Shown: positions 1,376 through 52,859 of the stretch, one piece after another
Position numbering within the stretch: position 1 is the stretch's first letter
Layout of the letters: each line of letters begins with the position of its first letter
Source: a phage
Sequence record: PX915676.1
Reading direction: 5' to 3' (one strand)
DNA: 64,000 nt
Made by a program: the position numbers and the translations under genes
The notes under the pieces: model-generated
Told to the model about the DNA's origin: nothing
The model's input: the letters and a program-made list of their open reading frames with translations, nothing else
Database searches by the model: none

Positions 1376-1403
1376 TTTATACTCCTTCTACATTATCAAC
1401 AAC

Positions 1404-29484: not shown

Positions 29485-30798
29485 ATGATTGTTATCCCGA
29501 TTAACCAAATTGAAGATAAGGTTGCTCAACAACCTGATATCACTGTTGGTCGTCACTTCATTGAACAGTTGATTAACAACAACTTGATTCCAGATGGTAT
29601 CTGTCCCATCATTACTGGTGGGGCTGTTCGTGATGCTGTCCTTAATAACATAGCTCCACATGACATTGATATCTTTATTGTCAGAGGACAAACACCAAGA
29701 ACTCAAAACACTTTCATCCCAACTGATCGTTGGCAAGAGCTTGGACGGGAGATTGAAAGTAATGTGAAGGAATGGCTAGAGTCACAAGATATTGAATATG
29801 CATCACTTCTTGCTGAAGCTACAAACGAATCCTATGCTGGGGGTTCTCAATTAACATTCACTGATATTATTGAGTTTCAGTGGAATGGGGTTCGTATCCA
29901 ATTCATGTTTAATTATCCTACTTCTATTGAAGAGGTATTGGATAATTTTCCTATGATGTGCCGTGGTGCGATGACTCTTGACAACTTATTCATGACTTCT
30001 CACGGATATTTGGCTATGACTTCCCCTTGTCCAGTGGTTGTCTCTAGTCGTGAAATCAGGTATGTTCACAAGAAGTGGCCTAACTCACAAGTGTTGAGAT
30101 TTTCCTCTCCAGCAGTTGCGCATCAATACATGGCCCAAACTCGATATCTTCCCACACCTCAGCCAGTTAGTCATCTAGTCAATGGATTAGGTCAGGTTTC
30201 TCTTATTGAAGATACAACAAGTGCTCTATATTGTGTTAACCGAGACATGAGTCGATTCTTTGGAATCCCTTATGAAGAGATTCAGATTATGTCTAGTCTT
30301 CACGGTTCTGGTCAGATTCATGCGTATTGGTCTGAGGGGTTGACAAATTTAACGACTAACACGGGTGGTGATCTGCTTGGTCGAGAAGAGGAACCTAACC
30401 GACACAATGCAATTGAAGGGGTGTTTGTAGCCCCTGCAATGCGTCGAGCACAAGAGTCACGAAGAGAAAGCCCTACTCGTAGAACATCTTTTGAAGAAGC
30501 TCTTGGTATTACAAGTGATTCTATGGAGCGATGGATGGCTAGACCCTCTCGTGGTCGACCAAACGGCTTAACTGTTAGCGCACGTCAGTTCTCTGGTCAG
30601 GGTTTCGCTGTTGGTGATATCAACGCCCCTTCTCGTGTTATCTGGACTGATGAAGGTATGGAACAAGATTTGGGAGATAGTCTCGCTGATCGCTTTATTG
30701 CTAACAACCCTGAAGTATTAGAACCTCAAACCCGTACAGTTCGGTTTGCCGATGAAGCGGGTCGTGGAATCTCTTTTGACATGGAAACAAATAACTAA
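29485..30798 (+). CDS. polymerase beta-superfamily nucleotidyltransferase (CCA-adding/poly(A) polymerase-like head domain)
   Basis: ITGGAVRDAVL...HDIDIF matches GGxVRD and DxD motifs of class II tRNA nucleotidyltransferases; remaining 350 aa unrecognised. Confidence 0.55.
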   Translation: MIVIPINQIEDKVAQQPDITVGRHFIEQLINNNLIPDGICPIITGGAVRDAVLNNIAPHDIDIFIVRGQTPRTQNTFIPTDRWQELGREIESNVKEWLESQDIEYASLLAEATNESYAGGSQLTFTDIIEFQWNGVRIQFMFNYPTSIEEVLDNFPMMCRGAMTLDNLFMTSHGYLAMTSPCPVVVSSREIRYVHKKWPNSQVLRFSSPAVAHQYMAQTRYLPTPQPVSHLVNGLGQVSLIEDTTSALYCVNRDMSRFFGIPYEEIQIMSSLHGSGQIHAYWSEGLTNLTTNTGGDLLGREEEPNRHNAIEGVFVAPAMRRAQESRRESPTRRTSFEEALGITSDSMERWMARPSRGRPNGLTVSARQFSGQGFAVGDINAPSRVIWTDEGMEQDLGDSLADRFIANNPEVLEPQTRTVRFADEAGRGISFDMETNN

Positions 30799-30807
30799 GG
30801 AATAAGA

Positions 30808-31341
30808 ATGAGTTTACTAGGAAGTATTGAACTGCATGATGTAATTGACAATGGCTATCTGGATGCGGAGCATAAGTATGTTAACGCTGCTAGTGTGGAT
30901 ATCCGTATTGGTGATACTATCCTTGTTGAAGAACAGGCTGATGGCATCGTTGATATTGATGCGAAAGAGAATCTTCAGTGGAAGGAAGTAAAGATTCCTG
31001 AAGAGGGTTTGGTTATCACTCCGGGTCAGTTCTTCTTGGCTCACTCTATGGAGGAGTTTAACCTTCCAGATAACATCTCAAGTCTGTTTGTTCTGCGTTC
31101 GTCTATGGCTCGTTGTGGTTTGAACCACCTTCACGCCGGTTGGGCAGATGCAGGATTTAATAGCAGTAAGCTGACATTTGAATTCCATAACGTAACCAAG
31201 CACCACAGCTTACGAGTTCGTGCTGGTATGCGTGTTGGTCAGATGGTTATGTTTGAGCACTCTCATGCAGGGGAACACTCCTATGCAGTGAAGGGTCGTT
31301 ATAATAACTCTGAAGGTGTGGTTGCATCTAAAGGTGTGTAA
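30808..31341 (+). CDS. dCTP deaminase family protein
   Basis: ASVDIRIGD and AGWADAGFNSSKLTFEFHN resemble dCTP deaminase/dUTPase motifs. Confidence 0.75.
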   Translation: MSLLGSIELHDVIDNGYLDAEHKYVNAASVDIRIGDTILVEEQADGIVDIDAKENLQWKEVKIPEEGLVITPGQFFLAHSMEEFNLPDNISSLFVLRSSMARCGLNHLHAGWADAGFNSSKLTFEFHNVTKHHSLRVRAGMRVGQMVMFEHSHAGEHSYAVKGRYNNSEGVVASKGV

Positions 31342-31539
31342 ATGAAAAAGTGGATTGTTCGTGTACATGATAACACGACTGGAGAGTTAGTAGCTGTAGA
31401 TTTTGTTAAGACTCGAGAACACGCACGTAGGGTCAAAAATCAATACAAGTCTACTTTTAGACTTAACAAGGTTACAATTGGAAAAGCTATTGTGAATAGC
31501 GAAGGTGCTTTTATTGCCAACAGTAAGGTTTATTATTAA
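31342..31539 (+). CDS. small protein, tandem paralog 1 of 3 (C-terminal KVYY)
   Basis: Track ORF; shares W-rich N-terminus, TRE(H/E)AR motif and SKV.YY end with next two ORFs. Confidence 0.55.
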   Translation: MKKWIVRVHDNTTGELVAVDFVKTREHARRVKNQYKSTFRLNKVTIGKAIVNSEGAFIANSKVYY

Positions 31540-31748
31540 TGAGACCGATCACTATGAGACAATTTTGGTTAGCAAAGATTAAGTGGGTATCAGGTGGCAT
31601 GACTATGACTGCACTACCCACTCGCCAACAAGCTCGAGATTTTAAAAAGACTATGCTTACTGGTGACGTGGTCAATAGTATCAGTATCCATAAGGCCAAG
31701 GAATATTCCTCTGGTCGTGTTTATATCAGCGGAAAGGTACACTACTAA
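31539..31748 (+). CDS. small protein, tandem paralog 2 of 3
   Basis: Track ORF; same pattern (ends KVHY). Confidence 0.55.
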   Translation: MRPITMRQFWLAKIKWVSGGMTMTALPTRQQARDFKKTMLTGDVVNSISIHKAKEYSSGRVYISGKVHY

Positions 31749-31957
31749 TGAAAAAGATGTGGGCTATTAGAATTGTTTGGGAACGTGAGCAACACCTAGG
31801 CAAAGATAATATCAAACTGTTTGAAACTCGTGAAGAGGCTCGTATTGCTAAGAAGGAGTTGAAGACTCTGATCGGAACTATTAAAAGTGTTGACATTCAT
31901 CGCTGGTACGAAGACCCTAGCTCGGGTTCTTTTATGTCTAAAGTAATTTATTACTGA
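31748..31957 (+). CDS. small protein, tandem paralog 3 of 3
   Basis: Track ORF; same pattern (ends KVIYY). Confidence 0.55.
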   Translation: MKKMWAIRIVWEREQHLGKDNIKLFETREEARIAKKELKTLIGTIKSVDIHRWYEDPSSGSFMSKVIYY

Positions 31958-32029
31958 TTGGTAGTAGATATGGTAACTCTCAAATGTATATAGAGTACAA
32001 TAAGAATTTGTATTTTACAGGAGAGAGTT

Positions 32030-32359
32030 ATGTTAGATTTGAGTAAAGTGGCCCCGCCCACTGAAGAGATTACAAAATCCAAGGTGATGCAACAGTTTTA
32101 TCATCGTGATATGCTTGGTCGCTTTATCAAGAATCGTGATGTTGTTGCTTGGTCTATTGGTAATCAGGGATATCTGTTGAAGGTTCTTCAGGTTACAGGT
32201 TCAACTGCTAAGCGAGTTAAGGTGTATGACCCTGAAATGGGGCGTTCTAAGTCAGTAGACCCACAGAACTGCATCGTAATTACCCAGCAGGTAATGGATA
32301 ATATTGCACGTAATGTTGCTAACTCAGTTGAACTTGATGGAGAAAACCCAAATGCATAA
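32030..32359 (+). CDS. hypothetical protein
   Basis: Track ORF 109 aa. Confidence 0.55.
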   Translation: MLDLSKVAPPTEEITKSKVMQQFYHRDMLGRFIKNRDVVAWSIGNQGYLLKVLQVTGSTAKRVKVYDPEMGRSKSVDPQNCIVITQQVMDNIARNVANSVELDGENPNA

Positions 32360-32915
32360 GAATGTCTTTGATTTACCTGAGATTGGTCGTGACAGTTATA
32401 GTATGTTAGACCGGTCCGACCTATCAATCTCTCGCCTTGAAACGATGCAAGGTATGATTAGTGGAAACAGCCTAGAACACATCCTGAGCTGCTTACAAGC
32501 TAACATGGAACTCTTGCATATCAAAGCTAAAAACTACCACTGGAACGTCTCTGGTGCAGGATTTCAGGGTGTTCATGGTATGTTTGATGAGCTGGAAGAT
32601 TACGCACGACAGGTAGGAGATCGTATTGCTGAACGTATGCGTTACCACTGTGTTAAAGTGGATGCTACAGCAGCTAACTACCTCTCTCATTCTTGGTTCT
32701 CAGAGGGTAATGCTGATCTAGACATGGACGGTATGCTCTCTGATATGTGCATGACCTTGATGTGTATTATTGAGAAGATGGATGAGTTTGATGGTGATTT
32801 AGCCACCTACCCTGTCGATCAGAGTATGCTTCAAGAAATTAATGAAGGTCTTGGCAAGTATTGCTACTTCGTCAAGAGCAACATGTCCCATTCAAGTGGT
32901 GACGTGTCTTACTAA
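32352..32915 (+). CDS. Dps-like ferritin-fold protein
   Basis: Track ORF trimmed to ATG 32352 with GGAG SD; LHIKAKNYHWNVSGAGFQGVHGMFDELEDYARQVGDRIAER matches the Dps ferroxidase-site helix pattern. Confidence 0.65.
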   Translation: MHKNVFDLPEIGRDSYSMLDRSDLSISRLETMQGMISGNSLEHILSCLQANMELLHIKAKNYHWNVSGAGFQGVHGMFDELEDYARQVGDRIAERMRYHCVKVDATAANYLSHSWFSEGNADLDMDGMLSDMCMTLMCIIEKMDEFDGDLATYPVDQSMLQEINEGLGKYCYFVKSNMSHSSGDVSY

Positions 32916-32976
32916 AAACCTCCGCCCTGTCTCCTAACCCGAGGTGGGGCGAACTTATTTATAAGGATATAGATAT

Positions 32977-33156
32977 ATGTTATCAGCAATCGTATGGGGT
33001 ATTTGGGCTATCTTTATTGGTGGTGGTATTTATTGGGCTTCTGGTAAGCTTATTGAAGAAACTCCTGATAAGAAAGGTGAGATTCAAACAGCATCAACCA
33101 TCATGGTTATCGTAGCTGTTGTTATCCCATTCCTGCTTCACCTCCTGACTGCATAA
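32977..33156 (+). CDS. small membrane protein (59 aa, two hydrophobic segments)
   Basis: ATG with AAGGA SD; below track cut-off. Confidence 0.4.
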   Translation: MLSAIVWGIWAIFIGGGIYWASGKLIEETPDKKGEIQTASTIMVIVAVVIPFLLHLLTA

Positions 33157-33164
33157 GGATTTAC

Positions 33165-33440
33165 ATGTCTAAAGTAATTAAGTTTTATAGTGATCAGTGT
33201 GCTCCATGTAAAGCAATGGCTCCTACCTTTGAGAAGGTTGTTAAGGAGTTTGATGTAGAAGTGGAAGAGATTAACATCCTTGAAGGTGATGGTCGTGAAC
33301 AAGCTGTTAAGTATGGTATACGAAGCATCCCTGCTTTTGTTGTGCCTGACCGTAACAGTGGTGCACACTACAGCCTCTCCGGTATGCAGACTGAAGCAAA
33401 CCTGAAAGCATTTTTGGACACAGCCCTGAGAAATAAGTAA
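33165..33440 (+). CDS. thioredoxin/glutaredoxin-fold protein (CxxC)
   Basis: Track ORF; active-site-like CAPC near N-terminus, about 90 aa. Confidence 0.7.
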   Translation: MSKVIKFYSDQCAPCKAMAPTFEKVVKEFDVEVEEINILEGDGREQAVKYGIRSIPAFVVPDRNSGAHYSLSGMQTEANLKAFLDTALRNK

Positions 33441-33455
33441 TAAGGATATTCACGG

Positions 33456-34112
33456 ATGAATGAACAACTACAAGCAACATTAATCGAAGCTATGGGAAGT
33501 GATCGTAGCGTAGTAAACGCAGCTCGAGTTTCCTTTGGCGTAACCCGTGAAGGTGATTTAAATGAACGTGATGAACGTCTCATCAACTTCCTCGCACGGG
33601 AAAAACACTGTACCCCATTCCGACACCCGCAAGTCAGCTTCCGATGCAAAGCACCTATTGCAATTGCGAGACAGCTGGGCAAGCATCAGGTTGGATTCTC
33701 GTGGAACGAAATGTCCCGGCGGTATAAAGATGGAGCAGTTGAAGTCTTCATCCCTAAAGAGATTTTTGCGAGACCTTCGGACCTCCATGCAGGTTCAGGG
33801 ATTCAACTCATCGACGGAGAGCGAGCTGAAGCATTAATGCTGATTAACGATGCATATGAAGCTTCTCTAGCAGCATATGACAAGTTGATTGAATTTATTG
33901 CACCAGAGCAAGCTCGATTTGTTCTTCCTCAGGGGATGATCACTGAGTGGGTGTGGACCGGTTCTTTGTATGGCTGGTTTGAGTTGTGTCGTCAGCGACT
34001 CTCCTCTCACGCTCAATATGAAGTTCGAGTGTTTGCTAAATCTGTAGACGAAGAGATGGCTAAGATCTACCCAATCTCGTGGGCAGCCCTGAAGAAAACT
34101 TTGGAGAGTTAA
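33456..34112 (+). CDS. thyX: flavin-dependent thymidylate synthase ThyX (variant motif)
   Basis: AARVSF, TPFRHPQVSFRCKAPIAIARQ, SWNEMSRRY and SHAQYEV match ThyX blocks; canonical RHR triad reads KHQ here. Confidence 0.8.
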   Translation: MNEQLQATLIEAMGSDRSVVNAARVSFGVTREGDLNERDERLINFLAREKHCTPFRHPQVSFRCKAPIAIARQLGKHQVGFSWNEMSRRYKDGAVEVFIPKEIFARPSDLHAGSGIQLIDGERAEALMLINDAYEASLAAYDKLIEFIAPEQARFVLPQGMITEWVWTGSLYGWFELCRQRLSSHAQYEVRVFAKSVDEEMAKIYPISWAALKKTLES

Positions 34113-34261
34113 TATTGGAAGAAGATGATGATGATGTGTTCTGCACCAAGTGCGGAATGACAGTGGATGATGCATATGACCCAAGTGTAGAAATTTGTCC
34201 ATGTTGCGGGGTATGTGAGTATTGCTGTTCTCATAATCCAGAGGATTAGCAGGAATTTCTG

Positions 34262-34495
34262 ATGAAAATCAAACATATTACAGATATTCAGGAGGCATTT
34301 AGGATGCTTCCTCGAAGAGAGAAGGATAAGATTAAAAAGCTTATTCAAGTTTATGGTCATACATCTAAAGATGATGTAGACTATATGCCTTCTACTTTCG
34401 TAGAGTGTGGGATTGCTCGCGGTTTCACATTCGACCATAAAGTGTTTCAGCAATTCGTTGACCACTGGAGAAAAGATGGAAAAGAAAGTCTGTAG
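34262..34495 (+). CDS. hypothetical protein
   Basis: Track ORF 77 aa; ends with TAG. Confidence 0.5.
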   Translation: MKIKHITDIQEAFRMLPRREKDKIKKLIQVYGHTSKDDVDYMPSTFVECGIARGFTFDHKVFQQFVDHWRKDGKESL

Positions 34496-34661
34496 CTTCT
34501 GTAAGAAAGAGAAACCTATCGCCAACTTCAAACCTAACCCTGTAACTGGTCTGACCCATGTCATGTGCCACTCTTGCAGGATATATCTTGAAACAAAGCA
34601 CACTATCAATAGGTTGCACTATTATCACCCAACAACATTCAAATTTAAGGTTGTGAAATGA
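34476..34661 (+). CDS. small zinc-ribbon protein
   Basis: Track ORF trimmed to ATG 34476; CSFC...CHSC. Confidence 0.45.
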   Translation: MEKKVCSFCKKEKPIANFKPNPVTGLTHVMCHSCRIYLETKHTINRLHYYHPTTFKFKVVK

Positions 34662-34981
34662 TTGACAGTAATACATTTAGGACTTCAAATGGAAGTGAAA
34701 TAAGTCCCGCTGAAGTAATCAATCGGCATAGAAGGCAATTGATCATCCATTCCTACTTGTATTACTGGTTGGATGACCCTATCTGGTCTGATGATAAATG
34801 GCAACAAGTTGCTAATGATCTAGCGGAGCTGCAAGCTCTGTATCCAGAACCTACTGGAGTCTTTGACAACGAGTTTAAAGATTGGGATGGTTCTACAGGT
34901 ATGCATCTCCCACATAACGAAGCTGTTGCTTGTATGGCGACAGCTGTTTACAGACTTCATAAAGAGGTTAACGTCGCATGA
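34658..34981 (+). CDS. hypothetical protein
   Basis: Track ORF 107 aa. Confidence 0.55.
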   Translation: MIDSNTFRTSNGSEISPAEVINRHRRQLIIHSYLYYWLDDPIWSDDKWQQVANDLAELQALYPEPTGVFDNEFKDWDGSTGMHLPHNEAVACMATAVYRLHKEVNVA

Positions 34982-35178
34982 GCGTAGTTTATGTTCTAGA
35001 AAGATACGCTGAAGATCACAGCAGTATTGTTGCCATATTTAAATATGCCCCGGATGTTGAGGATATTTTGAATGTGACTCACTTAACTGATGTTGATAAA
35101 ATCAAAGACCTCATCAGGAATGACAATGCCCACATAGGTGACTCTCTGTGGTCTCTTACTGAATGGACATTGTGGTGA
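34978..35178 (+). CDS. hypothetical protein
   Basis: Track ORF 66 aa. Confidence 0.5.
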   Translation: MSVVYVLERYAEDHSSIVAIFKYAPDVEDILNVTHLTDVDKIKDLIRNDNAHIGDSLWSLTEWTLW

Positions 35179-35360
35179 AGTGCTCTAAATGTGAAGGAAC
35201 AAACCTTCATTTAAGTAACAAGGTTATCAGAGAGCTTGCTAAAGGCTCTCCAACCAAAGGGAAGAACAAACGATTTACTAACGTCAGGGTTTATACAGCA
35301 ATCTGTAAAGACTGCTTAACTACTGAGTGTCATTACGAAGAAATTGGAGAGCGTAAATGA
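35163..35360 (+). CDS. small zinc-ribbon protein
   Basis: Track ORF; CSKC...CKDC. Confidence 0.5.
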   Translation: MDIVVKCSKCEGTNLHLSNKVIRELAKGSPTKGKNKRFTNVRVYTAICKDCLTTECHYEEIGERK

Positions 35361-36094
35361 GTCGTCGTCAATCACGGAAAGAATCACGGAAAGACCTTCG
35401 TCGGGAAGCACTTGTTACTCGTAAAGGTAAGCGAGAGTATGAAGAGGTTATTTTAGCAAAGCCTGTAGTCCCTCAGAACCAGTTTCAGTCTGAGCTACTC
35501 AATGCTATTAAGACTAAACAAGTTGTGTTCACAGACGCTCCTGCGGGCTGTGGTAAGACCTTTGTAATCACTTCCACGGTTATCGATGCACTGAAGAGTG
35601 GTAAGATTCAGAAGATCATTCTGAGTCGCCCTTCGGTTGGCATGGGAAACTCTCTTGGGTTACTTCCGGGAGGAATGCGTGAGAAGTTTGAACCTTACCT
35701 GATGCCTATCATTGATGTTATTACTCAGCGATATGGTAAGGGATTCTATGAATGCCAAATCGGAAATGGTAACATTGAATTTGTACCTCTGGAATATCTC
35801 CGTGGTCGTTCTTTCAATGATGCTATTGTTATTGTTGATGAGTTCCAGAACACCACTAAAGATGAAGCCTTCTCGATCATGACTCGATTGGGAGAAACCT
35901 CTCAGCTGTTCTGCATGGGCGATACTAACCAGCATGATATGCGTGGTCGTGAGAGTGGTCTTACTTGGGCTACTAACTTTATTGATGAACATGATCTGTA
36001 TGAGTTTGCTGAGATTGTAGATGGTGAATCAGATGATATTGTTCGTTCTGGTTTCTGTAAGGCGATTGTTAAAGCAATGGAAAAGAAAGCTTAA
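35357..36094 (+). CDS. phoH: PhoH-like ATPase
   Basis: Walker A DAPAGCGKTF and Walker B VIVDEFQN as in PhoH family. Confidence 0.85.
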   Translation: MSRRQSRKESRKDLRREALVTRKGKREYEEVILAKPVVPQNQFQSELLNAIKTKQVVFTDAPAGCGKTFVITSTVIDALKSGKIQKIILSRPSVGMGNSLGLLPGGMREKFEPYLMPIIDVITQRYGKGFYECQIGNGNIEFVPLEYLRGRSFNDAIVIVDEFQNTTKDEAFSIMTRLGETSQLFCMGDTNQHDMRGRESGLTWATNFIDEHDLYEFAEIVDGESDDIVRSGFCKAIVKAMEKKA

Positions 36095-36105
36095 ACAGTA
36101 ACTTA

Positions 36106-36114
36106 TAATGTATA
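36106..36114 (+). promoter_or_regulatory. TAATGTATA motif (candidate phage sigma-dependent promoter element)
   Basis: Exact 9-mer about 37 nt upstream of ATG 36151; same 9-mer at 43133 (+) and 52851-52859 (-), each upstream of a gene start. Confidence 0.45.
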
Positions 36115-36150
36115 CTCCTTAGTGTACACTGATATATTAAGGAGTTTTAA

Positions 36151-36465
36151 ATGGCAGATCATGTAGGAAAGAGAGATTATGCACAAGAAAGACGTACCGC
36201 AATTGCCCGTGGTGAGACAGGCGTTGGGAGCAAGAGCGGAGATGCTCAGCGCCACCGTGCACGTCGCATCGTTGAAAAGCGCGATGGAAAAGCTGCTGTC
36301 AGAGGTAAAGATGTTGGACACAAACGAGCTGTCAAGTCTGGAGGCTCTAATGCGTCAAGCAACTTACGTGTTGAATCAGTCAGCTCAAACCGTTCAAACG
36401 GCGGCAAAAGTGGTGATCGAGCTGGAAAAGCAGCTGGAGCACGCAAAGGAGCTTTAAGCTCATAA
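36151..36465 (+). CDS. highly basic Gly/Ser/Lys/Arg-rich protein
   Basis: Track ORF; AAGGAG SD; G-first/T-third codon periodicity favours this frame over overlapping ORF 36179-36457. Confidence 0.5.
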   Translation: MADHVGKRDYAQERRTAIARGETGVGSKSGDAQRHRARRIVEKRDGKAAVRGKDVGHKRAVKSGGSNASSNLRVESVSSNRSNGGKSGDRAGKAAGARKGALSS

Positions 36466-36475
36466 AGAGGTTATA

Positions 36476-36769
36476 GTGTCAGCAGAAACAAAAAGATGTA
36501 CAATTCACACTTATTGTAAATTCTGTAAAGCAGAGGGTGTAAAAAGAGTTGCAACTTTAATGACCAAGTATTCTCCAAGTAGAGGATATAGGGACCACTA
36601 TAAGCACTACTCTTGTAGTGATCACTCCCATCTATTAGAAGATACAGACCCGAATAGAACAAGGAGAGAGCATAACATCGACCTGAGAGCCACTCTCAAG
36701 GAAATGAAAAACAACTCTCGAAACAATCATTACACTGAAGCTGACTATCAAACTTGGCTTCGTCTATAG
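36476..36769 (+). CDS. hypothetical Cys/His-rich protein
   Basis: Track ORF; GTG start with AGAGG SD. Confidence 0.5.
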   Translation: MSAETKRCTIHTYCKFCKAEGVKRVATLMTKYSPSRGYRDHYKHYSCSDHSHLLEDTDPNRTRREHNIDLRATLKEMKNNSRNNHYTEADYQTWLRL

Positions 36770-36775
36770 AACAAA

Positions 36776-36804
36776 GGCTGCCTAATCGGGTGGCCTTTTC
36801 TTTT
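36776..36804 (+). terminator. intrinsic terminator
   Basis: GGCTGCC-TAATCG-GGTGGCC hairpin + TTTTCTTTT. Confidence 0.7.
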
Positions 36805-36839
36805 ATATAAACCAAATTAAAACTTCTTAGGTAATAAAT

Positions 36840-37094
36840 ATGTCTATTGTAAAAATCGTAAATATTTTTGATGTAACCAGAGATGGCAAGATTGTTAAGT
36901 GGACTTTCACTAACCACCACAACAAATCAAACAAGATCATCGAACGGATGATTGAGATTAACCCAAAAACAGCTCGCACTAATGTAATCCTTCGTGGTGC
37001 TGATGGTAAATTCATTTCTTATAAAAACAAAGACGTAGAAAAATCTTTCCGTGTTGCAGTAGAAAATCTCATCCCATTCCCTAAAGGAGTTTAA
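36840..37094 (+). CDS. hypothetical protein, paralog pair member 1
   Basis: Track ORF; C-terminal KTARTNVILRGADGKFISY...PFPKG shared with next ORF. Confidence 0.55.
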   Translation: MSIVKIVNIFDVTRDGKIVKWTFTNHHNKSNKIIERMIEINPKTARTNVILRGADGKFISYKNKDVEKSFRVAVENLIPFPKGV

Positions 37095-37095
37095 T

Positions 37096-37380
37096 ATGAA
37101 TAAGTTAGCTATGGTTCAAATTCGGGACACATACCCTAACCGCCCGGAGCAGAAACCGCGTACTTGGTCTTATCTGTTGGCTGAAAGTAAGACTATTGAC
37201 AAATACGCTGTAGGGGTTGATGCTATTCCAACTAGTATCACATTGCTCCCTCACAAAACAGCCAGAACCCATGTGATGTTACGTGATAGCAAAGGTAAGT
37301 TTATCTCTTATCGTGATTCACGAATCAATAATGAGATTAAATCTGCTATGGAATTTTTGATGCCATTCCCAAAAGGTTGA
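37096..37380 (+). CDS. hypothetical protein, paralog pair member 2
   Basis: Track ORF; KTARTHVMLRDSKGKFISY...PFPKG. Confidence 0.55.
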   Translation: MNKLAMVQIRDTYPNRPEQKPRTWSYLLAESKTIDKYAVGVDAIPTSITLLPHKTARTHVMLRDSKGKFISYRDSRINNEIKSAMEFLMPFPKG

Positions 37381-37383
37381 GTA

Positions 37384-37542
37384 ATGAAAGAATATATTTA
37401 CGTAGGACAGCGCTGGTTCGGTGATGAATGGGAAGGTGGTTACAGCGTTGTGAAAGCTTTTAAGTCTGAAGAAGATGCCAAGTCATGGGTCTTAAAAGAT
37501 GACGTCGGTGAGAGAACTTACATTGAAGTAGAGGTGGAGTAG
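37384..37542 (+). CDS. small ORF (52 aa)
   Basis: ATG with AAAGG SD; below track cut-off. Confidence 0.4.
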   Translation: MKEYIYVGQRWFGDEWEGGYSVVKAFKSEEDAKSWVLKDDVGERTYIEVEVE

Positions 37543-37543
37543 G

Positions 37544-37966
37544 ATGCCATTACCAGCTAGACACCAAAACCGTTTCTTAGTTCTCAAGTGGGATGATATC
37601 GAAATGAATCTCACTGAACATGAACTAGATTTGTTCCATGAATTATTATCAGAGATTCGCTCTGGTATTCCTGAACGTCAGTATGTGGTTATCAGTGATA
37701 AACACCCTCAAGAGTTTGAAGAAGCTTGGGGTATGAAGCTGGCCTACATTCAGAGAGCTATTAGAGAAAGAGAAGAAGTTGCTAATCAGAGGGTTGTGGC
37801 TCATCTGGTACGAGAACAGCCTCGTGAAGCCAGAGCTACACATACACCACCTCCGCCCCCTCCTTGGACAGTTGTCAACGGGACAGTTAGGGCTTATAGT
37901 GATGAAGCAACCATGCTGAATGTAGTAGAAGATAACCAAGCATTTACAGATTTACTTTACCAATAA
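37544..37966 (+). CDS. hypothetical protein (contains PPPPPPW)
   Basis: Track ORF; GAGGTGGAG SD. Confidence 0.6.
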   Translation: MPLPARHQNRFLVLKWDDIEMNLTEHELDLFHELLSEIRSGIPERQYVVISDKHPQEFEEAWGMKLAYIQRAIREREEVANQRVVAHLVREQPREARATHTPPPPPPWTVVNGTVRAYSDEATMLNVVEDNQAFTDLLYQ

Positions 37967-37982
37967 TTTAAAGGAGTATAAA

Positions 37983-39827
37983 GTGAGCAACCCGGACGCT
38001 CTTCCATTTTTGACAGAGATGACTGTCGCTGATATAATCTCTAAGCAAGCAAAGCACGGAGTGAGTTTCAACCGAAGAAATGCTCGGTGGTATGTTCACC
38101 TCCTTAAAGAGATTATTGTTAATATTGACAGAGAGTTGATTCCTCTCTTACCTAAGATGAGATTAGACGGCTCTACTTATATGAAGCCGTTTAAGAAGTC
38201 TGGAGCTTTGCAGAAATGGCCTCAAGCTTATTGTGATAGGGTTGGGCTGAAGAGAGAAGACATTGGCGGAGCTTTCACCTGTGTCGAATACGTAGACTTT
38301 GACCCATCGAAAGATGCACGAGTTAAAGAAGCTCTTATGGATGAGGGCTTTCTTCCTCCAGAGTTTAACGTATCTAAGAAGCCTTGGAATACTTTCGAAA
38401 TTAAGAAAGATATGAGAAAGTATGGAACATACCAAGCATGGTATACTGCTTGGATGCGAGGCAATGCTAAGCAAAAGCAGACAGCCGAGATGGTTGACGC
38501 TGATATTAAGAAGTTCTTAGAAAAGCATTTCAGGTTTAAGACTAAGAATTACATGAAGGCTTACGTATTTGGTTTGGGGTTGAACCCTAATCGCCGTAAT
38601 CCTGTAACGTTTGATGAGATTAAGAAAGCGCTAGCCACATCAAACAAGTGGCCTACAGCTCCTACAAATCTCGAGGAGACTCTCGAAGAAGGGTTAGGAG
38701 GTGAGCTAGGGAGTGTCGGAAGTTTGCTTAAGAGACGCGTTGTAGCAGCTCACAGGCTAGGTCTTATCAATGGACTCATAGCAAAGGAACGCGAAGATGG
38801 TAAACTTTCGGCAGAAGCTAACAGCTGCGCTACGCCGACTTTTCGATTCAAACATCGTATCGTGGTTAATATTCCCTCCCGTGGTTTGTTTGGTCACGAG
38901 TGTCGCAGTTTGTTTGAGTCTGACTATAACTCAGACAGTGATCATTCTCGTCCTTTCATTATTACTAACGTTGTTCCTGATGGTTGTTATATACGAAAAG
39001 GTACTAACGTAATTTACGAGAAGGGTAAGCCGGGGAAGAAAGACAAACCTGTAGGTGCTTACAAATATTACATACCCGCTGGTAAAGAAGTATTCTTAGG
39101 GTATGATGGTTCTGGGCTTGAACTTCGCATGCTCGCTCACTACCTCATTAAAGAGTGTAGGGACATGCTTGCTGAAGCAATAGAAGAGAATAATCCAGCT
39201 AAGAAAGCTCTGGCAGAACGTGGTTTAGCTTCTGCTATTATGTATCGTGACATCCTCCTTGAAGGGGATATCCACTCCCACAACCAGAAACTTGCTGGTC
39301 TTCCTACTCGTGACAACGCTAAGACCTTTATCTACGCATTCAACTATGGTGCTGGTGATGCTAAGCTCGGTTCAATTGTAGGTGGTGGGGCTGACGAAGG
39401 TTCAGTGATGCGAGCACGTTTCTTAGCAGAGAACCCATGTATTGCAATCCTCATTGATCGTATGACAGAGAAAGCTGCTCAAGGATACTTGATTGGTGTC
39501 GATGGTCGTAAGATTACAATGAGACGGGATGCCACTGGTAAGGTTATGGTTCATAAAGCCCTTAACACACTCCTGCAATGTGCTGGTGCTGTTGTTATGA
39601 AATATGCTATGATGTTCCTTAACAAGTGGATTGAGAAAGATAAGGTTCGTTGTGCTAAGGTAATTGATATGCACGATGAAGGTCAATTCTCAGTAAACCG
39701 TAATGATGTACAGAAACTCAAAGAGCACACTGAGCTTTGTGTTAAGAAAGCTGGCGAGTATCTGAACATGGAATGTCCTCTGGCATCTGATTGTCAGATT
39801 GGACTTAACTGGATGCATACACACTAA
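37983..39827 (+). CDS. DNA polymerase I family polymerase subunit (T7 DNAP C-terminal homolog)
   Basis: GYDGSGLELRMLAHY, PTRDNAKTFIYAFNYGAGDAKLG (motif B), MHDEGQF (motif C), collinear with T7 gene 5 from about residue 190; GTG start with AAAGGAG SD. Confidence 0.9.
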   Translation: MSNPDALPFLTEMTVADIISKQAKHGVSFNRRNARWYVHLLKEIIVNIDRELIPLLPKMRLDGSTYMKPFKKSGALQKWPQAYCDRVGLKREDIGGAFTCVEYVDFDPSKDARVKEALMDEGFLPPEFNVSKKPWNTFEIKKDMRKYGTYQAWYTAWMRGNAKQKQTAEMVDADIKKFLEKHFRFKTKNYMKAYVFGLGLNPNRRNPVTFDEIKKALATSNKWPTAPTNLEETLEEGLGGELGSVGSLLKRRVVAAHRLGLINGLIAKEREDGKLSAEANSCATPTFRFKHRIVVNIPSRGLFGHECRSLFESDYNSDSDHSRPFIITNVVPDGCYIRKGTNVIYEKGKPGKKDKPVGAYKYYIPAGKEVFLGYDGSGLELRMLAHYLIKECRDMLAEAIEENNPAKKALAERGLASAIMYRDILLEGDIHSHNQKLAGLPTRDNAKTFIYAFNYGAGDAKLGSIVGGGADEGSVMRARFLAENPCIAILIDRMTEKAAQGYLIGVDGRKITMRRDATGKVMVHKALNTLLQCAGAVVMKYAMMFLNKWIEKDKVRCAKVIDMHDEGQFSVNRNDVQKLKEHTELCVKKAGEYLNMECPLASDCQIGLNWMHTH

Positions 39828-39835
39828 GGTGAGTG

Positions 39836-40201
39836 ATGAAAGAAACCAATATCATCTACAGAACATTGAGATGTTTAGCTAAAGAGAGGGGGATGGAGGA
39901 TTTCCTCCTCCAATATTATGAAATAGCTAAGACTGGAATTTATCCAAAATGGTTTAGTGAAGATCACGGATTATGCTTCAACTTTCGCTGTTATAAGAGG
40001 TATTACTATTTCACAAAGCATTTAGATATTGACGACATGAAGGATATGTTTAATCAAGAAAAGTTTTTGGACCCAACATACCCATTCGGATGTGATCAAT
40101 ATTTTAGAGATAGGGAAAACGGGGCACATCATAAGAATCCAAAACGACGGGCTTGGATTAAAGATACACTGAAAACTCTATATAGTATTGAGGTTGAGTG
40201 A
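39836..40201 (+). CDS. hypothetical protein
   Basis: Track ORF trimmed to ATG 39836 with AAGGTGAG SD. Confidence 0.6.
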   Translation: MKETNIIYRTLRCLAKERGMEDFLLQYYEIAKTGIYPKWFSEDHGLCFNFRCYKRYYYFTKHLDIDDMKDMFNQEKFLDPTYPFGCDQYFRDRENGAHHKNPKRRAWIKDTLKTLYSIEVE

Positions 40202-40392
40202 TGAGTGTTCGTGGTTATTATGAATCTTGGGCCGTCTTTAGTGGTGGCTCCACTCTCGTAGCATTAAATGGTCAACTGTGTATCTTTGAGACAGAGAACT
40301 TAGCAATAACCAAAGCAGCAGAGCTAGTTCGAAAGTTTCCAAACAAGACATTCACAGTTAAAAGGATAGAAGTACCTGCATTGGTAGAGTGA
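40201..40392 (+). CDS. hypothetical protein
   Basis: Track ORF trimmed to ATG 40201. Confidence 0.5.
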   Translation: MSVRGYYESWAVFSGGSTLVALNGQLCIFETENLAITKAAELVRKFPNKTFTVKRIEVPALVE

Positions 40393-40447
40393 ATAAATAA
40401 GACGAATGAACTATTCTTATTGATTGGTTCGTAACAAGGAGATTGAA

Positions 40448-40576
40448 GTGGAAGAGATGCCATCGGATTGGTGTTATCGTCAGAGCGCCATCTGTAATGA
40501 ACAAGGTCGTCCTGATGAGGCTGAGTTCTATCTAGAGCTAGCCGAACTGTGGAAAGAACGAGAGGAGAAAGAGTGA
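40448..40576 (+). CDS. small ORF (42 aa)
   Basis: GTG with AAGGAG SD; stop overlaps next ATG. Confidence 0.3.
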   Translation: MEEMPSDWCYRQSAICNEQGRPDEAEFYLELAELWKEREEKE

Positions 40577-40743
40577 TGGAAGGTATTTACCGTAAACCGC
40601 CTCCAAAATATAACATCCTTTATACTGATGCAACAGGCGAGTTTAGGAGTGTGTTAGTTTACACGGATGAAGAACGAAACCAAATGGTTGCTGCTATTGA
40701 AGCCAATGGTGGTACAATCATGCGAATTTATAACATAACATAA
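40576..40743 (+). CDS. small ORF (55 aa)
   Basis: Track ORF trimmed to ATG 40576 with GAGAGGAG SD. Confidence 0.4.
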   Translation: MEGIYRKPPPKYNILYTDATGEFRSVLVYTDEERNQMVAAIEANGGTIMRIYNIT

Positions 40744-40752
40744 GGAATATCA

Positions 40753-40929
40753 ATGACTGCTTCTGAATTAAAAGAAACCCTATCCACTGAAGAAGGTAAA
40801 GCTTTCTTCTTATCTCAAGTACACTCTATGGGTAAAGATGCCCTTCGCCAAGCAGTCGTTGAGCTTACTGGTGTAGTGATTGACTTGAGTATTGAAAACG
40901 AAACACTTGAAGCTAAAGTGAACAGTTAA
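40753..40929 (+). CDS. small ORF (58 aa)
   Basis: ATG with AAGGAA SD; followed by terminator. Confidence 0.4.
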   Translation: MTASELKETLSTEEGKAFFLSQVHSMGKDALRQAVVELTGVVIDLSIENETLEAKVNS

Positions 40930-40934
40930 ATAAG

Positions 40935-40958
40935 AAGCTGCCTTCGGGCGGCTTTTCT
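40935..40958 (+). terminator. intrinsic terminator
   Basis: AAGCTGCC-TTCG-GGCGGCTT hairpin + TTTTCTT. Confidence 0.7.
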
Positions 40959-40975
40959 TGTCTAAAGGATTTGAC

Positions 40976-41368
40976 ATGAATATTGGTTTAGATTATGATG
41001 ACACTTACACAGCAGACAGACGACTGTGGAGAGATGTGATAGGCTTGATGAAAGAATACGGACATGATGTAAGATTCGTGACTTTCCGTTTCTCAGAGCC
41101 TAACGGTTATGATAACGTGGATATCCTCTACGATGCAGAGACCTTGCAGATTCCTATCATCTTTTGTAATGGTGTCCAGAAGGATGAGGTGTGTCGACAG
41201 TTAGGTTTCTTCGTAGATATCTGGATTGATGACTTCCCTGTTGGAATCCCCAAAAAGGACCACCTAGACGGTATGCTGAAGGGCGTAAGACTTAATGACC
41301 TTAGGGCAGCACCTCCTGTAGAAATAGCCGCTCCTGTGTACTCTGAAGAGCCTTTGGTGATTCGATGA
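40976..41368 (+). CDS. HAD-superfamily phosphatase-like protein (putative nucleotidase)
   Basis: Track ORF trimmed to ATG 40976; N-terminal LDYDDT (DxDxT-like) and later WIDDFP (DD motif). Confidence 0.4.
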   Translation: MNIGLDYDDTYTADRRLWRDVIGLMKEYGHDVRFVTFRFSEPNGYDNVDILYDAETLQIPIIFCNGVQKDEVCRQLGFFVDIWIDDFPVGIPKKDHLDGMLKGVRLNDLRAAPPVEIAAPVYSEEPLVIR

Positions 41369-41541
41369 AAAAGATAATTCTTTGGGCTTTAGGTATAGCT
41401 CTATTCCTATATCTTATCGATATCGGAGGGGATGCCAGTAGAGAAGACTGTGAAGTGAGGTTGTCTCAAGAGTTTAAGTCAGAGACAAAGTGGGTTAATG
41501 GTCGATGCTATGTAAAAGATTGGGGAAGAACTTCTCGATGA
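41365..41541 (+). CDS. small secreted/membrane protein (58 aa)
   Basis: ATGA overlap with upstream stop; N-terminal KKIILWALGIALFLYLI. Confidence 0.4.
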   Translation: MKKIILWALGIALFLYLIDIGGDASREDCEVRLSQEFKSETKWVNGRCYVKDWGRTSR

Positions 41542-41699
41542 AAAAGTATAGTGTATGGTTTAACGAGGTAGAAGAGGGTTTTGATGAAGTCGGAGGATGG
41601 GTAAATATCCTAAACACTGACGATATAGAAGAGGCCGAGAAGTGCGCCCTAAACTACAACTCTGGGTATTATGAAAGAAATTGGGAATATGAGGAATAA
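41538..41699 (+). CDS. small ORF (53 aa)
   Basis: Track ORF trimmed to ATG 41538 overlapping upstream stop. Confidence 0.45.
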   Translation: MKKYSVWFNEVEEGFDEVGGWVNILNTDDIEEAEKCALNYNSGYYERNWEYEE

Positions 41700-41701
41700 G
41701 A

Positions 41702-41923
41702 ATGATTTGGGTTCACACTTATAGAATTGGGAAGAAAGGGCTTACTACTATTCACACATCTGAAGATAGTGCTAAAGCATCTCAGGCTGTACTGAAAGGA
41801 AAGATCACACCTTATGTAGTTGCTGAAGAAAAGAAGAGTCCTCCAGTTCTGGAATACTTAGGAACAGGTAAAGCTTATACAGCACTGGATGTTATTAACA
41901 ACAAACAAGGAGATATGGCATAA
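41702..41923 (+). CDS. hypothetical protein
   Basis: Track ORF 73 aa. Confidence 0.5.
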   Translation: MIWVHTYRIGKKGLTTIHTSEDSAKASQAVLKGKITPYVVAEEKKSPPVLEYLGTGKAYTALDVINNKQGDMA

Positions 41924-41925
41924 AA

Positions 41926-42141
41926 ATGGAATACATTGATAAATACTCAAGTGAAGATTCAACAGACGCTGAAGTTTTATTTATACTAAAAACAGACTGT
42001 CTTGAACATGGTCAACTTATCAATTTCATTGAGTTGGCAAAACTTAAAGAAGAGATTGATCAACTATATAGTGATGAGCAATCCAGATTACTTTCTCTAT
42101 CCCTTCTAGGTGATTTAACTTGCGATGGGTGCACTATCTAA
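41926..42141 (+). CDS. hypothetical protein
   Basis: Track ORF 71 aa. Confidence 0.5.
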   Translation: MEYIDKYSSEDSTDAEVLFILKTDCLEHGQLINFIELAKLKEEIDQLYSDEQSRLLSLSLLGDLTCDGCTI

Positions 42142-42150
42142 GAGGTCTTT

Positions 42151-42654
42151 ATGGCTGAAGTTTATTTTGCAGGGGATGGTCACTTAGGTCATCGCAACAT
42201 CTGTAGTTTTCGTAAGCAATTTAAAACCATCGAAGAACATGACAAAGCAATTCTAGCTGCATTTGATCATGTAACTAAGCGAGATAAGATCTTCTTTACT
42301 GGTGATTGGGTGTTTGAAAAATATGCCCTTGATATCATCGCTGAAGTAAAAGGAGAGAAACATCTGGTCTTGGGGAATCATGACAAATTAGAACTTCTCC
42401 CTGATATGATGAAAGTCTTCCGTAGAATCTCTGGTGATTATAAATATAAAGAGTTTTGGGTAACTCATATTCCTATTCACGCTGATGAAATGAGAGGGAA
42501 GTTTAATATTTATGCTCATACCCATAATCATGTAATTGATGATTGGAGATATTTCTGTACATCAATGGAGCAAATTAACTATAAAGCTGTTTCTCTGCAA
42601 GAGATTAGGAAGGTCTTTGATGAAAGAAGAAAAGAACAAGATCTCATTATTTAA
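42151..42654 (+). CDS. calcineurin-like metallophosphoesterase
   Basis: AGDGHLGH, TGDWVF, LGNHD and HTH motifs in canonical order. Confidence 0.7.
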   Translation: MAEVYFAGDGHLGHRNICSFRKQFKTIEEHDKAILAAFDHVTKRDKIFFTGDWVFEKYALDIIAEVKGEKHLVLGNHDKLELLPDMMKVFRRISGDYKYKEFWVTHIPIHADEMRGKFNIYAHTHNHVIDDWRYFCTSMEQINYKAVSLQEIRKVFDERRKEQDLII

Positions 42655-43132
42655 AGAACCTGTAGTTTATAAAGACTCTATCAGAGATCAATATAATGAG
42701 ATGTTAAAGAAACAAGCTGATTCTAATCTTCGTTATCAGAGGATAGTAGAAAAATCTAATTTTAAAGGTTTACTTGAATGGTAACTTATATTCTTTACTT
42801 TTTAGCTTTCTTAGGAATAATCTTTTTATCTATTATTCTTGAATTTGGTTTAAGTAAGTTAGTTAATTATTTAGGTAATAAGTAATTAATATTCTTTTAA
42901 ATAGAGAATCAAAGTCCCTAGGAGTCCCTACAACCTAAATCAAGGATTCCTTAATTCTCTATTTTTATCTCGCAGGTGGCTCCTGCCCTTCGGTACTTGC
43001 AAGGGATTCTGTGAATTGCCCAATATACAAGCCTGCAATAACTTTATCAGCTATACAATATATACATTACTAGTGTGTTATATCTACTACCAAAGATACT
43101 TATATTATATAGTACTCTTATCGGTATAAGCG

Positions 43133-43141
43133 TAATGTATA
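43133..43141 (+). promoter_or_regulatory. TAATGTATA motif (candidate phage sigma-dependent promoter element)
   Basis: Exact 9-mer in AT-rich region about 60 nt upstream of ATG 43201. Confidence 0.45.
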
Positions 43142-43200
43142 CTATACATAACCGCTCAAAGAGAGCAACAATCTTTCAAATTAAATAAGGAAATTAAAAT

Positions 43201-43947
43201 ATGTCTATGATTCCAACTATCGCAACTGCTTCTCGTAAATCCAACTACGATGTAATCCCTGATGGTGAATACGAAGCACGTATCGTTCGTGTAGTAGGTT
43301 TAGGTGTTCACAATCGTGACCCTTGGATTGACCCGAAGACCAAAGCAGTAACCCCTAAGAATCCGGCTTTCCGTATGGATTTAGCTTTCGAGCTGATTGG
43401 TGTTGATGCTACTGGTAAAGATTCCGATGGTAAGGCATTAGAACCACGTCCGGCTTGCCAGTTCAAGAGCTATGATGTAAACCCACGAGCTAAGAACTCT
43501 GGTATTCTTGATCTTTGCAAGATGATTGACCCAAGTATTCAAGCACTGAAAGGTGATCTGTCTTGGTTCAAGGATGTTCTGTTAGGTCAGCCTGTTAACA
43601 TTCTAGTTAACTCTTACACTAACAAAGCTGGTGAAATTAAAAACTCCATCAAGACCATTTCTCCAATCCCAACCAAATATCGTGCAGCAGTTGGTGAAGC
43701 TCGTAGTCCTCTGGTATTCTTCGAACCGTATGCTGAAACCGATGAGAACGTAGCATCCTATCAACTGATGTTTCCGTTCCAGCGCAACCTGCTTACTCAA
43801 GCTAATGACGCTAAGAACATGCCTCTGGCTGGTCGTGAAATTACTCGTGCTTCTGAAACAGAGCAGAAAGAAGCTACTCCTTCAATCCCTACGATTGATA
43901 AAGAGCCTGCTTCTACTTACGAAGACGACAACGATAGCCCATTCTAA
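43201..43947 (+). CDS. putative single-stranded DNA-binding protein (acidic C-terminal tail ending DDNDSPF)
   Basis: Track ORF; C-terminus resembles the SSB acidic tip (E. coli SSB ends DDDIPF); strong terminator follows; fold not verified. Confidence 0.5.
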   Translation: MSMIPTIATASRKSNYDVIPDGEYEARIVRVVGLGVHNRDPWIDPKTKAVTPKNPAFRMDLAFELIGVDATGKDSDGKALEPRPACQFKSYDVNPRAKNSGILDLCKMIDPSIQALKGDLSWFKDVLLGQPVNILVNSYTNKAGEIKNSIKTISPIPTKYRAAVGEARSPLVFFEPYAETDENVASYQLMFPFQRNLLTQANDAKNMPLAGREITRASETEQKEATPSIPTIDKEPASTYEDDNDSPF

Positions 43948-43968
43948 TAACTCTCCTTGTTATAGCTT

Positions 43969-44239: not shown

Positions 44240-45529
<1,290 letters not shown>

Positions 45530-45533
<4 letters not shown>

Positions 45534-52850: not shown

Positions 52851-52859
52851 TATACATTA
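52851..52859 (-). promoter_or_regulatory. TAATGTATA motif (minus strand)
   Basis: Reverse complement of TATACATTA, about 40 nt upstream of the 1473 aa gene start. Confidence 0.45.

What the first reader, a model, noticed from the sequence alone, without database searches (positions are those of the whole stretch)
36106..36114. TAATGTATA motif upstream of genes on both strands: candidate promoter for the phage sigma factor
Exact TAATGTATA occurs at 36106 (+), 43133 (+) and 52851-52859 (minus), each 35-60 nt upstream of a gene start (basic protein, SSB-like protein, 1473 aa virion protein). Near matches lie upstream of ORF 32030 (AAATGTATA at 31982) and of the putative TerS (TAATGTAGA, minus, 1387-1395). 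A 9-mer recurring three times in gene-proximal positions is unlikely by chance. From memory, phiEco32-type phage sigma factors recognise a similar element, but I cannot verify that here.
Basis: partly seen in the sequence, partly recalled or inferred. Interest (0 to 1): 0.5.

Follow-up and report, generated by a model that had tools for sequence, protein, structure and literature searches.

The report
Known phiEco32-type phage sigma promoters

Summary
The window is a Kuravirus (phiEco32/SU10/MN03-like, about 96% identical), reverse-complemented and circularly permuted relative to phiEco32. ORF 44500-45144 is 214/214 identical to phiEco32 sigma factor gp36. ORF 26003-26251 is 82/82 identical to its co-activator gp79 (PDB 9m7y). 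The sequence variants match the published ones. P13 lies outside the window.

By-product: the fourth exact copy is an inverted site that none of the accessible promoter lists contain. It carries the same -35 box as P68 (TTGGTAGTAGATAT, G at -37, A at -34) at identical spacing, and it is retained in all 22 relatives examined. Downstream lies a structured minus-strand RNA candidate of about 165-190 nt, whose 5' hairpin starts at the predicted +1 and shows compensatory changes. It has no Rfam match, and no transcription data exist.

The parts
36106..36114 (+). Orthologue of phiEco32 middle promoter P58 (SU10 P56). It is the -15..-7 element TAATGTATA, with predicted +1 at 36121 (A), and drives gene 36151-36465.
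   Evidence: Exact motif. It aligns to phiEco32 42937-42945 upstream of phi32_58. The sequence is identical to the SU10 S2 table entry 'acttataatgtatactccttagtgtacactg'. The motif and downstream region are conserved in TH43, NC-B and phiEco32, while the upstream region varies.
43133..43141 (+). Orthologue of phiEco32 middle promoter P40 (SU10 P37), with predicted +1 at 43148 (A). It drives gene 43201-43947 and the operon leading to the sigma gene.
   Evidence: Exact motif. It is invariant in 12 phages of three genera, while its upstream region varies. It matches the SU10 S2 entry 'aagcgtaatgtatactatacataaccgctc'.
52851..52859 (-). Orthologue of phiEco32 late promoter P26 (SU10 P24), with predicted +1 at 52844 (G). 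It drives the 1473-aa gene 52812-48391.
   Evidence: Exact motif. It aligns to phiEco32 26014 upstream of phi32_26. It matches the SU10 S2 entry 'ttctataatgtatatagggggtaggac'. P26 was shown to be gp36-dependent and gp79-activated in vitro.
31958..31990 (+). Orthologue of phiEco32 middle promoter P68. It comprises the -35 box TTGGTAGTAGATAT (31958-31971), a 10-nt spacer and AAATGTATA (31982-31990), with predicted +1 at 31997 (A). It drives gene 32030-32359.
   Evidence: P68 is the promoter in the cryo-EM open complex, where -37G and -34A are contacted by gp36 R187 and Y186. The window has G at -37 and A at -34.
1387..1395 (-). Orthologue of phiEco32 late promoter P6 (SU10 P4), TAATGTAGA, with predicted +1 at 1380 (A). 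It lies directly upstream of gene 1375-902 and is preceded by a terminator hairpin.
   Evidence: The published variant TAATGTAgA is listed for P6. It matches the SU10 S2 entry 'gttgataatgtagaaggagtataaaatg'.
43061..43092 (-). Seventh, inverted site ('anti40'), absent from the accessible promoter lists. It comprises box TGGTAGTAGATA (43092-43081), an 11-nt spacer and TAATGTATA (43069-43061), with predicted +1 at 43054 (A). It points away from gene 40, against the direction of the middle genes.
   Evidence: Exact motif. It shares the 14-mer and its spacing with P68. Box and motif are invariant with a fixed spacer length and about 9 spacer sequences. The architecture occurs exactly twice per complete genome in IMG/VR. 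It is absent from the six-promoter lists.
42892..43054 (-). Candidate non-coding RNA downstream of anti40. It has a 5' hairpin at +1..+17, a variable middle module (type A or B), the hairpin GCAGG..CCUGC, and a 65-nt hairpin (42899-42963) that on the + strand doubles as a T5 terminator.
   Evidence: RNAalifold and pair counts give 99.5% of cells paired, 2 covarying pairs in the 5' hairpin and 0/500 shuffles reaching the covariation score. The minus-strand fold is -45.8 kcal/mol against -35.3 for the plus strand, and 28 G.U cells would be C.A on the plus strand. There is no ORF and no Rfam hit. Transcription has not been shown.
44500..45144 (+). Sigma factor gene, orthologue of phiEco32 gp36, which reads the motif.
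   Evidence: 214/214 identical to PDB 9m7y chain F.
26003..26251 (+). Orthologue of phiEco32 gp79, which inhibits sigma70 holoenzyme and activates gp36 holoenzyme.
   Evidence: 82/82 identical to PDB 9m7y chain G. Its function is described.

Best explanation
TAATGTATA is the -10-like recognition element (positions -15 to -7) of middle and late promoters used by E. coli core RNA polymerase carrying the phage sigma factor gp36. The window is a phiEco32-like Kuravirus. According to the published cryo-EM open complex, the gp36 N-terminal domain reads -14A, -13A and -12T in duplex form, melting starts at -11G, and transcription starts 6-8 nt downstream of the element. The C-terminal domain can contact a -35 region (G at -37, A at -34). 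The small protein gp79 displaces sigma70 and stabilises gp36 on the polymerase, which switches transcription from early to middle and late genes. In this window the sites at 31982(+), 36106(+) and 43133(+) are the middle promoters P68, P58 and P40. The sites at 52851(-) and 1387(-) are the late promoters P26 and P6. Shown here: motif statistics, orthology, identity of gp36 and gp79, and conservation. Inferred from the literature on phiEco32: the actual start sites, sigma dependence and timing.
For: There are 4 exact copies against 0.76 expected, all intergenic. The window is about 96% identical to kuraviruses and collinear with phiEco32. gp36 is 214/214 and gp79 82/82 identical to the proteins in PDB 9m7y. 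The literature gives the consensus tAATGTAtA, starts 6-8 bp downstream, and six promoters upstream of genes 6, 13, 26, 40, 58 and 68. The SU10 S2 table lists promoter sequences letter-for-letter identical to the window's P56, P37, P24 and P4 equivalents; its P68 entry differs at one spacer base. Each site aligns to the corresponding phiEco32 site and is conserved in TH43, NC-B and SU7. Base-specific contacts are described in the cryo-EM paper. The seventh base after the motif is a purine at all six sites, and -34 is A at all six.
Against: No transcription data exist for this particular phage. The primary paper (Pavlova et al. 2012) could not be read, so its content is taken from four papers that cite it. 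The SU10 authors suggest some middle promoters, notably P68, may also be read by sigma70. One-mismatch variants and the 6-mer core are not enriched, so the motif alone does not predict promoters without positional context.
Confidence: 0.93

Rival explanations
1. The motifs are host sigma70 promoters (TGTATATA read as an extended -10-like element), not sigma-gp36 promoters, or they are used mainly by sigma70.
For: The SU10 paper annotates P68 with sigma70-style -35 and -10 marks and suggests dual recognition of middle promoters. The simple sigma70 scan finds a weak 9/12 match, TAGATA-18-TATATT, overlapping the inverted site.
Against: The sigma70 scan found no match at the P68-like, P58-like or P40-like sites, the three within the range scanned; P26-like and P6-like lie outside it. 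P58 and P40 have no conserved -35 region at all. Published in vitro work shows gp36 holoenzyme transcribes P26 and P68, that gp79 shuts off sigma70, and that mutating -14..-11 or the gp36 contact residues abolishes activity.
Confidence: 0.04
2. The recurrence is a chance or compositional effect of AT-rich intergenic DNA.
For: The window is AT-rich (about 42% GC). Degenerate versions of the motif occur at chance frequency.
Against: None of 100 shuffles reached 4 exact copies. All copies are intergenic. All are invariant at orthologous positions across three genera while flanking bases vary.
Confidence: 0.01
3. The motif marks an RNA processing site or the binding site of another regulator, and mapped 5' ends arise from cleavage rather than initiation.
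For: In the related phage 7-11, one primer-extension end upstream of the sigma gene was attributed to processing at a hairpin.
Against: For phiEco32 the promoters were validated by in vitro transcription and by a cryo-EM open complex on P68. The window's sigma factor is identical in sequence.
Confidence: 0.02

Closest known systems
phiEco32 gp36-dependent middle/late promoters P6, P13, P26, P40, P58, P68 (Pavlova et al. 2012, as cited in PMC8948821, PMC4331800, PMC4281155 and PMC12276001)
   Same: The 9-mer is the same, including the published variants (TAATGTAgA at P6, aAATGTATA at P68). The genomic positions are the same by synteny. The sigma factor (214/214) and gp79 (82/82) are identical. 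The -35 box of P68 is the same.
   Different: The strain shows only minor differences. phi32_59 is absent, so the P58-like site follows PhoH directly, as in SU10. P13 falls outside the 64-kb window. The window contains one further exact copy in inverted orientation that is not in the published list; it is also present in phiEco32 itself at 36704(+).
Annotated promoters of phage vB_EcoP_SU10 (PLoS One 2014, S2 Table)
   Same: The promoter sequences for P56, P37, P24 and P4 are letter-for-letter identical, and P68 is near-identical.
   Different: SU10 lists six AATGTA sites and no inverted site in the CDS37/38 spacer.
Phage 7-11 gp47-dependent late promoters, GTAAtg-(16)-aCTA (PMC8948821)
   Same: Both use a phage-encoded sigma factor on host core polymerase, with promoters at comparable genome positions.
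   Different: The 7-11 consensus is bipartite and read by a sigma factor only about 15% identical. 7-11 has no gp79 and no middle class. That pattern is not present in the window above chance (2 one-mismatch hits against 4.7 expected).
T4 late promoters (TATAAATA read by gp55). This comparison is from my own knowledge and was not tested here.
   Same: Both are single -10-like elements read by a minimal phage sigma factor helped by a co-activator.
   Different: The proteins are unrelated, the consensus differs, and T4 couples activation to the sliding clamp rather than to a gp79-like clamp binder.

Membership tests
phiEco32-type gp36-dependent promoters | Single consensus element tAATGTAtA | tested here: met
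   There are four exact copies plus AAATGTATA and TAATGTAGA at the positions where the published list has those same variants.
phiEco32-type gp36-dependent promoters | The cognate sigma factor gp36 is encoded by the same genome | tested here: met
   Window 44500-45144 is 214/214 identical to PDB 9m7y_F.
phiEco32-type gp36-dependent promoters | Located upstream of the orthologues of genes 6, 26, 40, 58 and 68 | tested here: met
   Shown by the synteny map and local alignments to phiEco32 and by the match to SU10 S2 sequences.
phiEco32-type gp36-dependent promoters | Transcription starts 6-8 nt downstream of the element | not testable with these tools
   The only available indication is that the seventh base after the motif is A at five sites and G at one.
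phiEco32-type gp36-dependent promoters | Transcribed in vitro by E. coli core plus gp36 and stimulated by gp79 | not testable with these tools
   The gp79 orthologue is present and 82/82 identical. The activity itself is known only from phiEco32.
phiEco32-type gp36-dependent promoters | -35 contacts seen on P68: G at -37 and A at -34 | tested here: met
   This is met at P68-like, P6-like and the inverted site (G and A). The other three sites have A at -34 but A at -37. The literature treats the family as single-element, so this feature is not required of all members.
sigma70-type promoters | TTGACA, 16-18 nt, TATAAT, with at least 9 of 12 matches | tested here: not met
   The scan of 30000-49000 gives no match at the P68-like, P58-like or P40-like sites, and only a weak 9/12 match overlapping the inverted site. 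P26-like and P6-like lie outside the scanned range and were not tested.
Any Rfam RNA family (for the RNA candidate downstream of the inverted site) | Covariance-model match at or near the gathering score | tested here: not met
   Only chance-level hits with E above 2 in 42500-43400. The only hit in the whole window at gathering score is tRNA-Arg.

The most novel reading that the evidence does not exclude
The fourth exact copy (43061-43069, minus strand) is a genuine seventh gp36-dependent promoter that the six-promoter model of phiEco32 lacks. It would transcribe, against the direction of the middle genes, a conserved structured non-coding RNA of about 165-190 nt. That RNA starts with a covarying 5' hairpin and ends in or beyond the complement of the terminator that precedes gene 40. 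Possible roles are a cis-antisense modulator of termination or readthrough into the gene 40-to-sigma operon, or a primer or activator transcript for a replication origin. Both roles are speculation.
Probability: 0.4. Interest if true: 0.45.

Novelty: already known. Interest (0 to 1): 0.2.

Why it matters
For the finding as submitted, the value is annotation. It fixes the temporal classes of this phage's genes by homology to a well-studied model: middle from P68, P58 and P40, late from P26 and P6. It also shows that a tool-free reading can recover a real regulatory element. It adds no new biology, because the motif, its sigma factor, its co-activator and the atomic contacts are all published. 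The by-product could matter modestly. The transcription map of phiEco32, which serves as a model for phage sigma appropriation, may lack a conserved antisense promoter and a small RNA in the spacer that controls entry into the operon encoding the sigma factor itself. This is directly testable with one in vitro transcription assay and one Northern blot.

Tried and rejected
- Reading the primary paper (Pavlova 2012; PubMed 22261232, PMC3275717) and Savalia 2008 (PMC2587145): neither is held. Their content was taken from citing papers and supplements.
- Enrichment of degenerate motifs: one-mismatch 9-mers and the core AATGTA occur at chance frequency, so these gave no further candidate sites. TAATGTAGA at 23375(+) lies inside a coding region and was not pursued.
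- 7-11-type bipartite promoter in the window: absent.
- Rfam on the spacer and on the whole window: nothing except tRNA-Arg.
- Coding potential downstream of the inverted site: only TTG-start ORFs of 32 aa or fewer, in a stretch replaced by a different sequence module (type B) in some relatives.
- Trans targets of the RNA candidate in the window: only 11-12-nt matches, about what I would expect by chance for a 165-nt query against 64 kb, though no shuffle control was run.
- Similarity to E. coli genomes: none.
- Minus-strand intrinsic terminator for the RNA candidate: none detected, so the 3' end is undefined.
- Function of the promoter-proximal genes: no Pfam hits and PHROGs of unknown function.
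- Metagenome scan for more diverse copies: only 2 loci.
- The idea that the two inverted copies act as one fixed palindrome: rejected, because a roughly 120-nt insertion separates them in ES17-type phages while each keeps its own flank.
- A paper on E. coli NC101 phages: it has no phage transcript mapping.

Full report
**Observation**

Dinucleotide shuffles give a mean of 0.76, and none of 100 reached four. The gaps to the downstream start codons are 36, 59 and 38 nt. For the large late gene, the mechanical ORF list starts at the ATG inside the motif. The real start, with an AAGGAG ribosome site, is at 52812 and gives 1473 aa, the length of phi32_26.

As classes, one-mismatch 9-mers (19 against 19.9 expected) and the core AATGTA (41 against 44) are not enriched. 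The signal therefore lies in the full 9-mer and its placement. All exact copies fall in the roughly 11% of the window that is non-coding by a crude estimate.

**What the window is**

An 11-kb stretch is 96-98% identical to Escherichia phages MN03, SU10, FS2B and others of the genus Kuravirus. A synteny map shows that the window is the reverse complement of phiEco32 (NC_010324) and is circularly permuted. The 193-bp terminal repeat is collapsed near 2768-2960, and the window ends at phiEco32 position 14873.

**What is known**

Papers citing Pavlova et al. 2012 agree on the following:
- Six promoters, upstream of phiEco32 genes 6, 13, 26, 40, 58 and 68, are recognised by host core polymerase carrying gp36.
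- They share a single consensus, tAATGTAtA.
- Transcription starts 6-8 bp downstream.

A supplementary table gives the per-site sequences: TAATGTAgA for P6, TAATGTATA for P13, P26, P40 and P58, and aAATGTATA for P68. It also gives their equivalents in SU10 and four other phages. The SU10 supplementary table prints promoter sequences letter-for-letter identical to the window's sites at 36106, 43133, 52851 and 1387; its P68 entry differs from the window at one spacer base.

A 2025 cryo-EM open complex on P68 shows how the element is read:
- The gp36 N-terminal domain reads -14A, -13A and -12T, and unwinding begins at -11G.
- The C-terminal domain contacts -37G and -34A.
- gp79 displaces sigma70 region 4 and stabilises gp36.

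Local alignments place each window site on its phiEco32 counterpart:

| Window site | phiEco32 position | Promoter |
|---|---|---|
| 1387 (-) | upstream of gene 6 (about 1680) | P6 |
| 31982 (+) | 46862 | P68 |
| 36106 (+) | 42937 | P58 |
| 43133 (+) | 36632 | P40 |
| 52851 (-) | 26014 | P26 |

P13 (phiEco32 9101) lies beyond the window's end. The motifs are invariant in TH43, NC-B and SU7, which belongs to a different genus. The sequence upstream of P58 and P40 varies freely, which fits single-element promoters. P68 keeps its -35 box.

If the motif is numbered as -15 to -7, the base at +1 is A at five sites and G at one, and -34 is A at all six. The sigma70 consensus scan, which covered only 30000-49000, found nothing at the P68-like, P58-like or P40-like sites.

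**A by-product: the missed fourth copy**

The inverted site at 43061-43069 (-) lies 63 nt from P40 and points the other way. It is also present in phiEco32 at 36704(+), yet it is not among the six published promoters. The published computational searches examined only the gene-direction strand of intergenic regions.

Evidence that it is a promoter:
- It carries TTGGTAGTAGATAT at -39..-26. This is the same 14-mer at the same spacing as P68, and it places G at -37 and A at -34.
- Across 22 phages and contigs, the motif and the TGGTAGTA part of the box are invariant and the spacer length is fixed. The spacer sequence has about nine variants.
- In IMG/VR complete genomes, the box-N11-WAATGTATA architecture occurs exactly twice per genome, at P68 and at this site.
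- In ES17-type phages a roughly 120-nt insertion separates it from P40, and it stays attached to its own downstream sequence.

Evidence for a structured RNA downstream, on the minus strand:
- There is no credible ORF and no Rfam match.
- A 6-7-bp hairpin begins exactly at the predicted +1. Two of its pairs change on both sides (UA to GC; CG to UA or AU) and one changes from GC to GU.
- After the hairpin come a middle module that exists in two unrelated versions, an invariant small hairpin, and a 65-nt hairpin (42899-42963).
- The minus-strand fold is -45.8 kcal/mol against -35.3 for the plus strand. Twenty-eight G.U cells would be C.A mismatches on the plus strand.

Caveats:
- Diversity is low, with about five hairpin variants and perhaps three or four independent events.
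- The shuffle control ignores phylogeny.
- The large hairpin followed by T5 is a plausible plus-strand terminator in its own right.
- No minus-strand terminator was found.
- Nothing shows that the RNA is made.
- No trans target or host similarity was found.
- No accessible paper mentions such an RNA.
- Nearly all of the 99 GenBank relatives that carry the element annotate nothing there.

**Verdict**

The feature is a textbook instance of an already characterised system in a phage whose sigma factor and co-activator are identical to the characterised ones, so interest in the finding as given is low. The only part that might be new is the inverted seventh site and its RNA candidate. I rate it at about 0.4 probability of being a functional promoter-RNA unit, and it is of moderate interest to specialists in phage transcription.

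Noticed in passing
window 43061-43092 (-) and 42892-43054 (-): An inverted seventh TAATGTATA site carries the P68-type -35 box at identical spacing and is conserved in all 22 relatives examined. It is followed by a structured minus-strand RNA candidate with a covarying 5' hairpin at the predicted +1. It is not in the published six-promoter lists and not in Rfam.
   Followed up: yes
window 42899-42990 (+): A 65-nt hairpin (AATAGAGAAT...ATTCTCTATTTTT) has loop sequences that are invariant across genera, including AGTCCCTA-GG-AGTCCCTA and the palindrome AAGGATTCCTT. It is followed by the invariant GCAGGTGGCTCCTGCCCTTCGG. This is more conserved than a plain terminator needs to be, and it folds better as minus-strand RNA.
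   Followed up: partly
window 42990-43040; loci L009, L010, L025, L027, L028: The middle of the RNA candidate exists as two unrelated sequence modules: type A in most phages, and type B in ECBP2, MN05, ES17 and two metagenome or IMG/VR contigs. The modules are combined mosaically with different 5' hairpin variants, which suggests recombination within the spacer.
   Followed up: partly
window 38010-38038 (+): A perfect sigma70 consensus (TTGACA-17-TATAAT, flagged by the scan tool as preceded by TG) lies just inside the 5' end of the DNA polymerase ORF (37983-39827). It is conserved in phiEco32 (41322, minus strand) but absent as an exact match in TH43, NC-B and SU7.
   Followed up: partly
window 1375-1395 (-): At the P6-like site, the Shine-Dalgarno AGGAG lies between the motif and the predicted start site (1380). 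Transcripts from P6 would therefore carry only a leader of about 5 nt before the ATG at 1375, making the mRNA nearly leaderless for gene 6. A terminator hairpin sits immediately upstream, and its 3' arm supplies the G at -37 and A at -34.
   Followed up: no
window 52855-52857 (-): The ATG inside the TAATGTATA of the P26-like site is in frame with the 1473-aa gene. Mechanical ORF calling therefore extends the gene to 1488 aa and makes the promoter look coding.
   Followed up: yes
window 2768-2960: The two ends of the phiEco32 genome overlap here by 193 bp, which is the terminal repeat collapsed to a single copy. The source assembly is therefore circularly permuted relative to the physical genome ends.
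   Followed up: partly
window 23375-23383 (+): TAATGTAGA, the P6 variant, also occurs inside the coding region of the ORF 22668-24359, co-directional with the genes. One-mismatch sites are at chance frequency, so this is probably fortuitous. Conservation was not checked.
   Followed up: no
window 43133-43151: The P40-like motif is followed by an inverted near-copy, forming the near-palindrome TAATGTATAcTATACATAA. This is not conserved in ECBP2, SU7 or TH43-type phages.
   Followed up: partly
window 13169-13244 (+): There is a tRNA-Arg (anticodon TCT) in the early region, as annotated in phiEco32.
   Followed up: no
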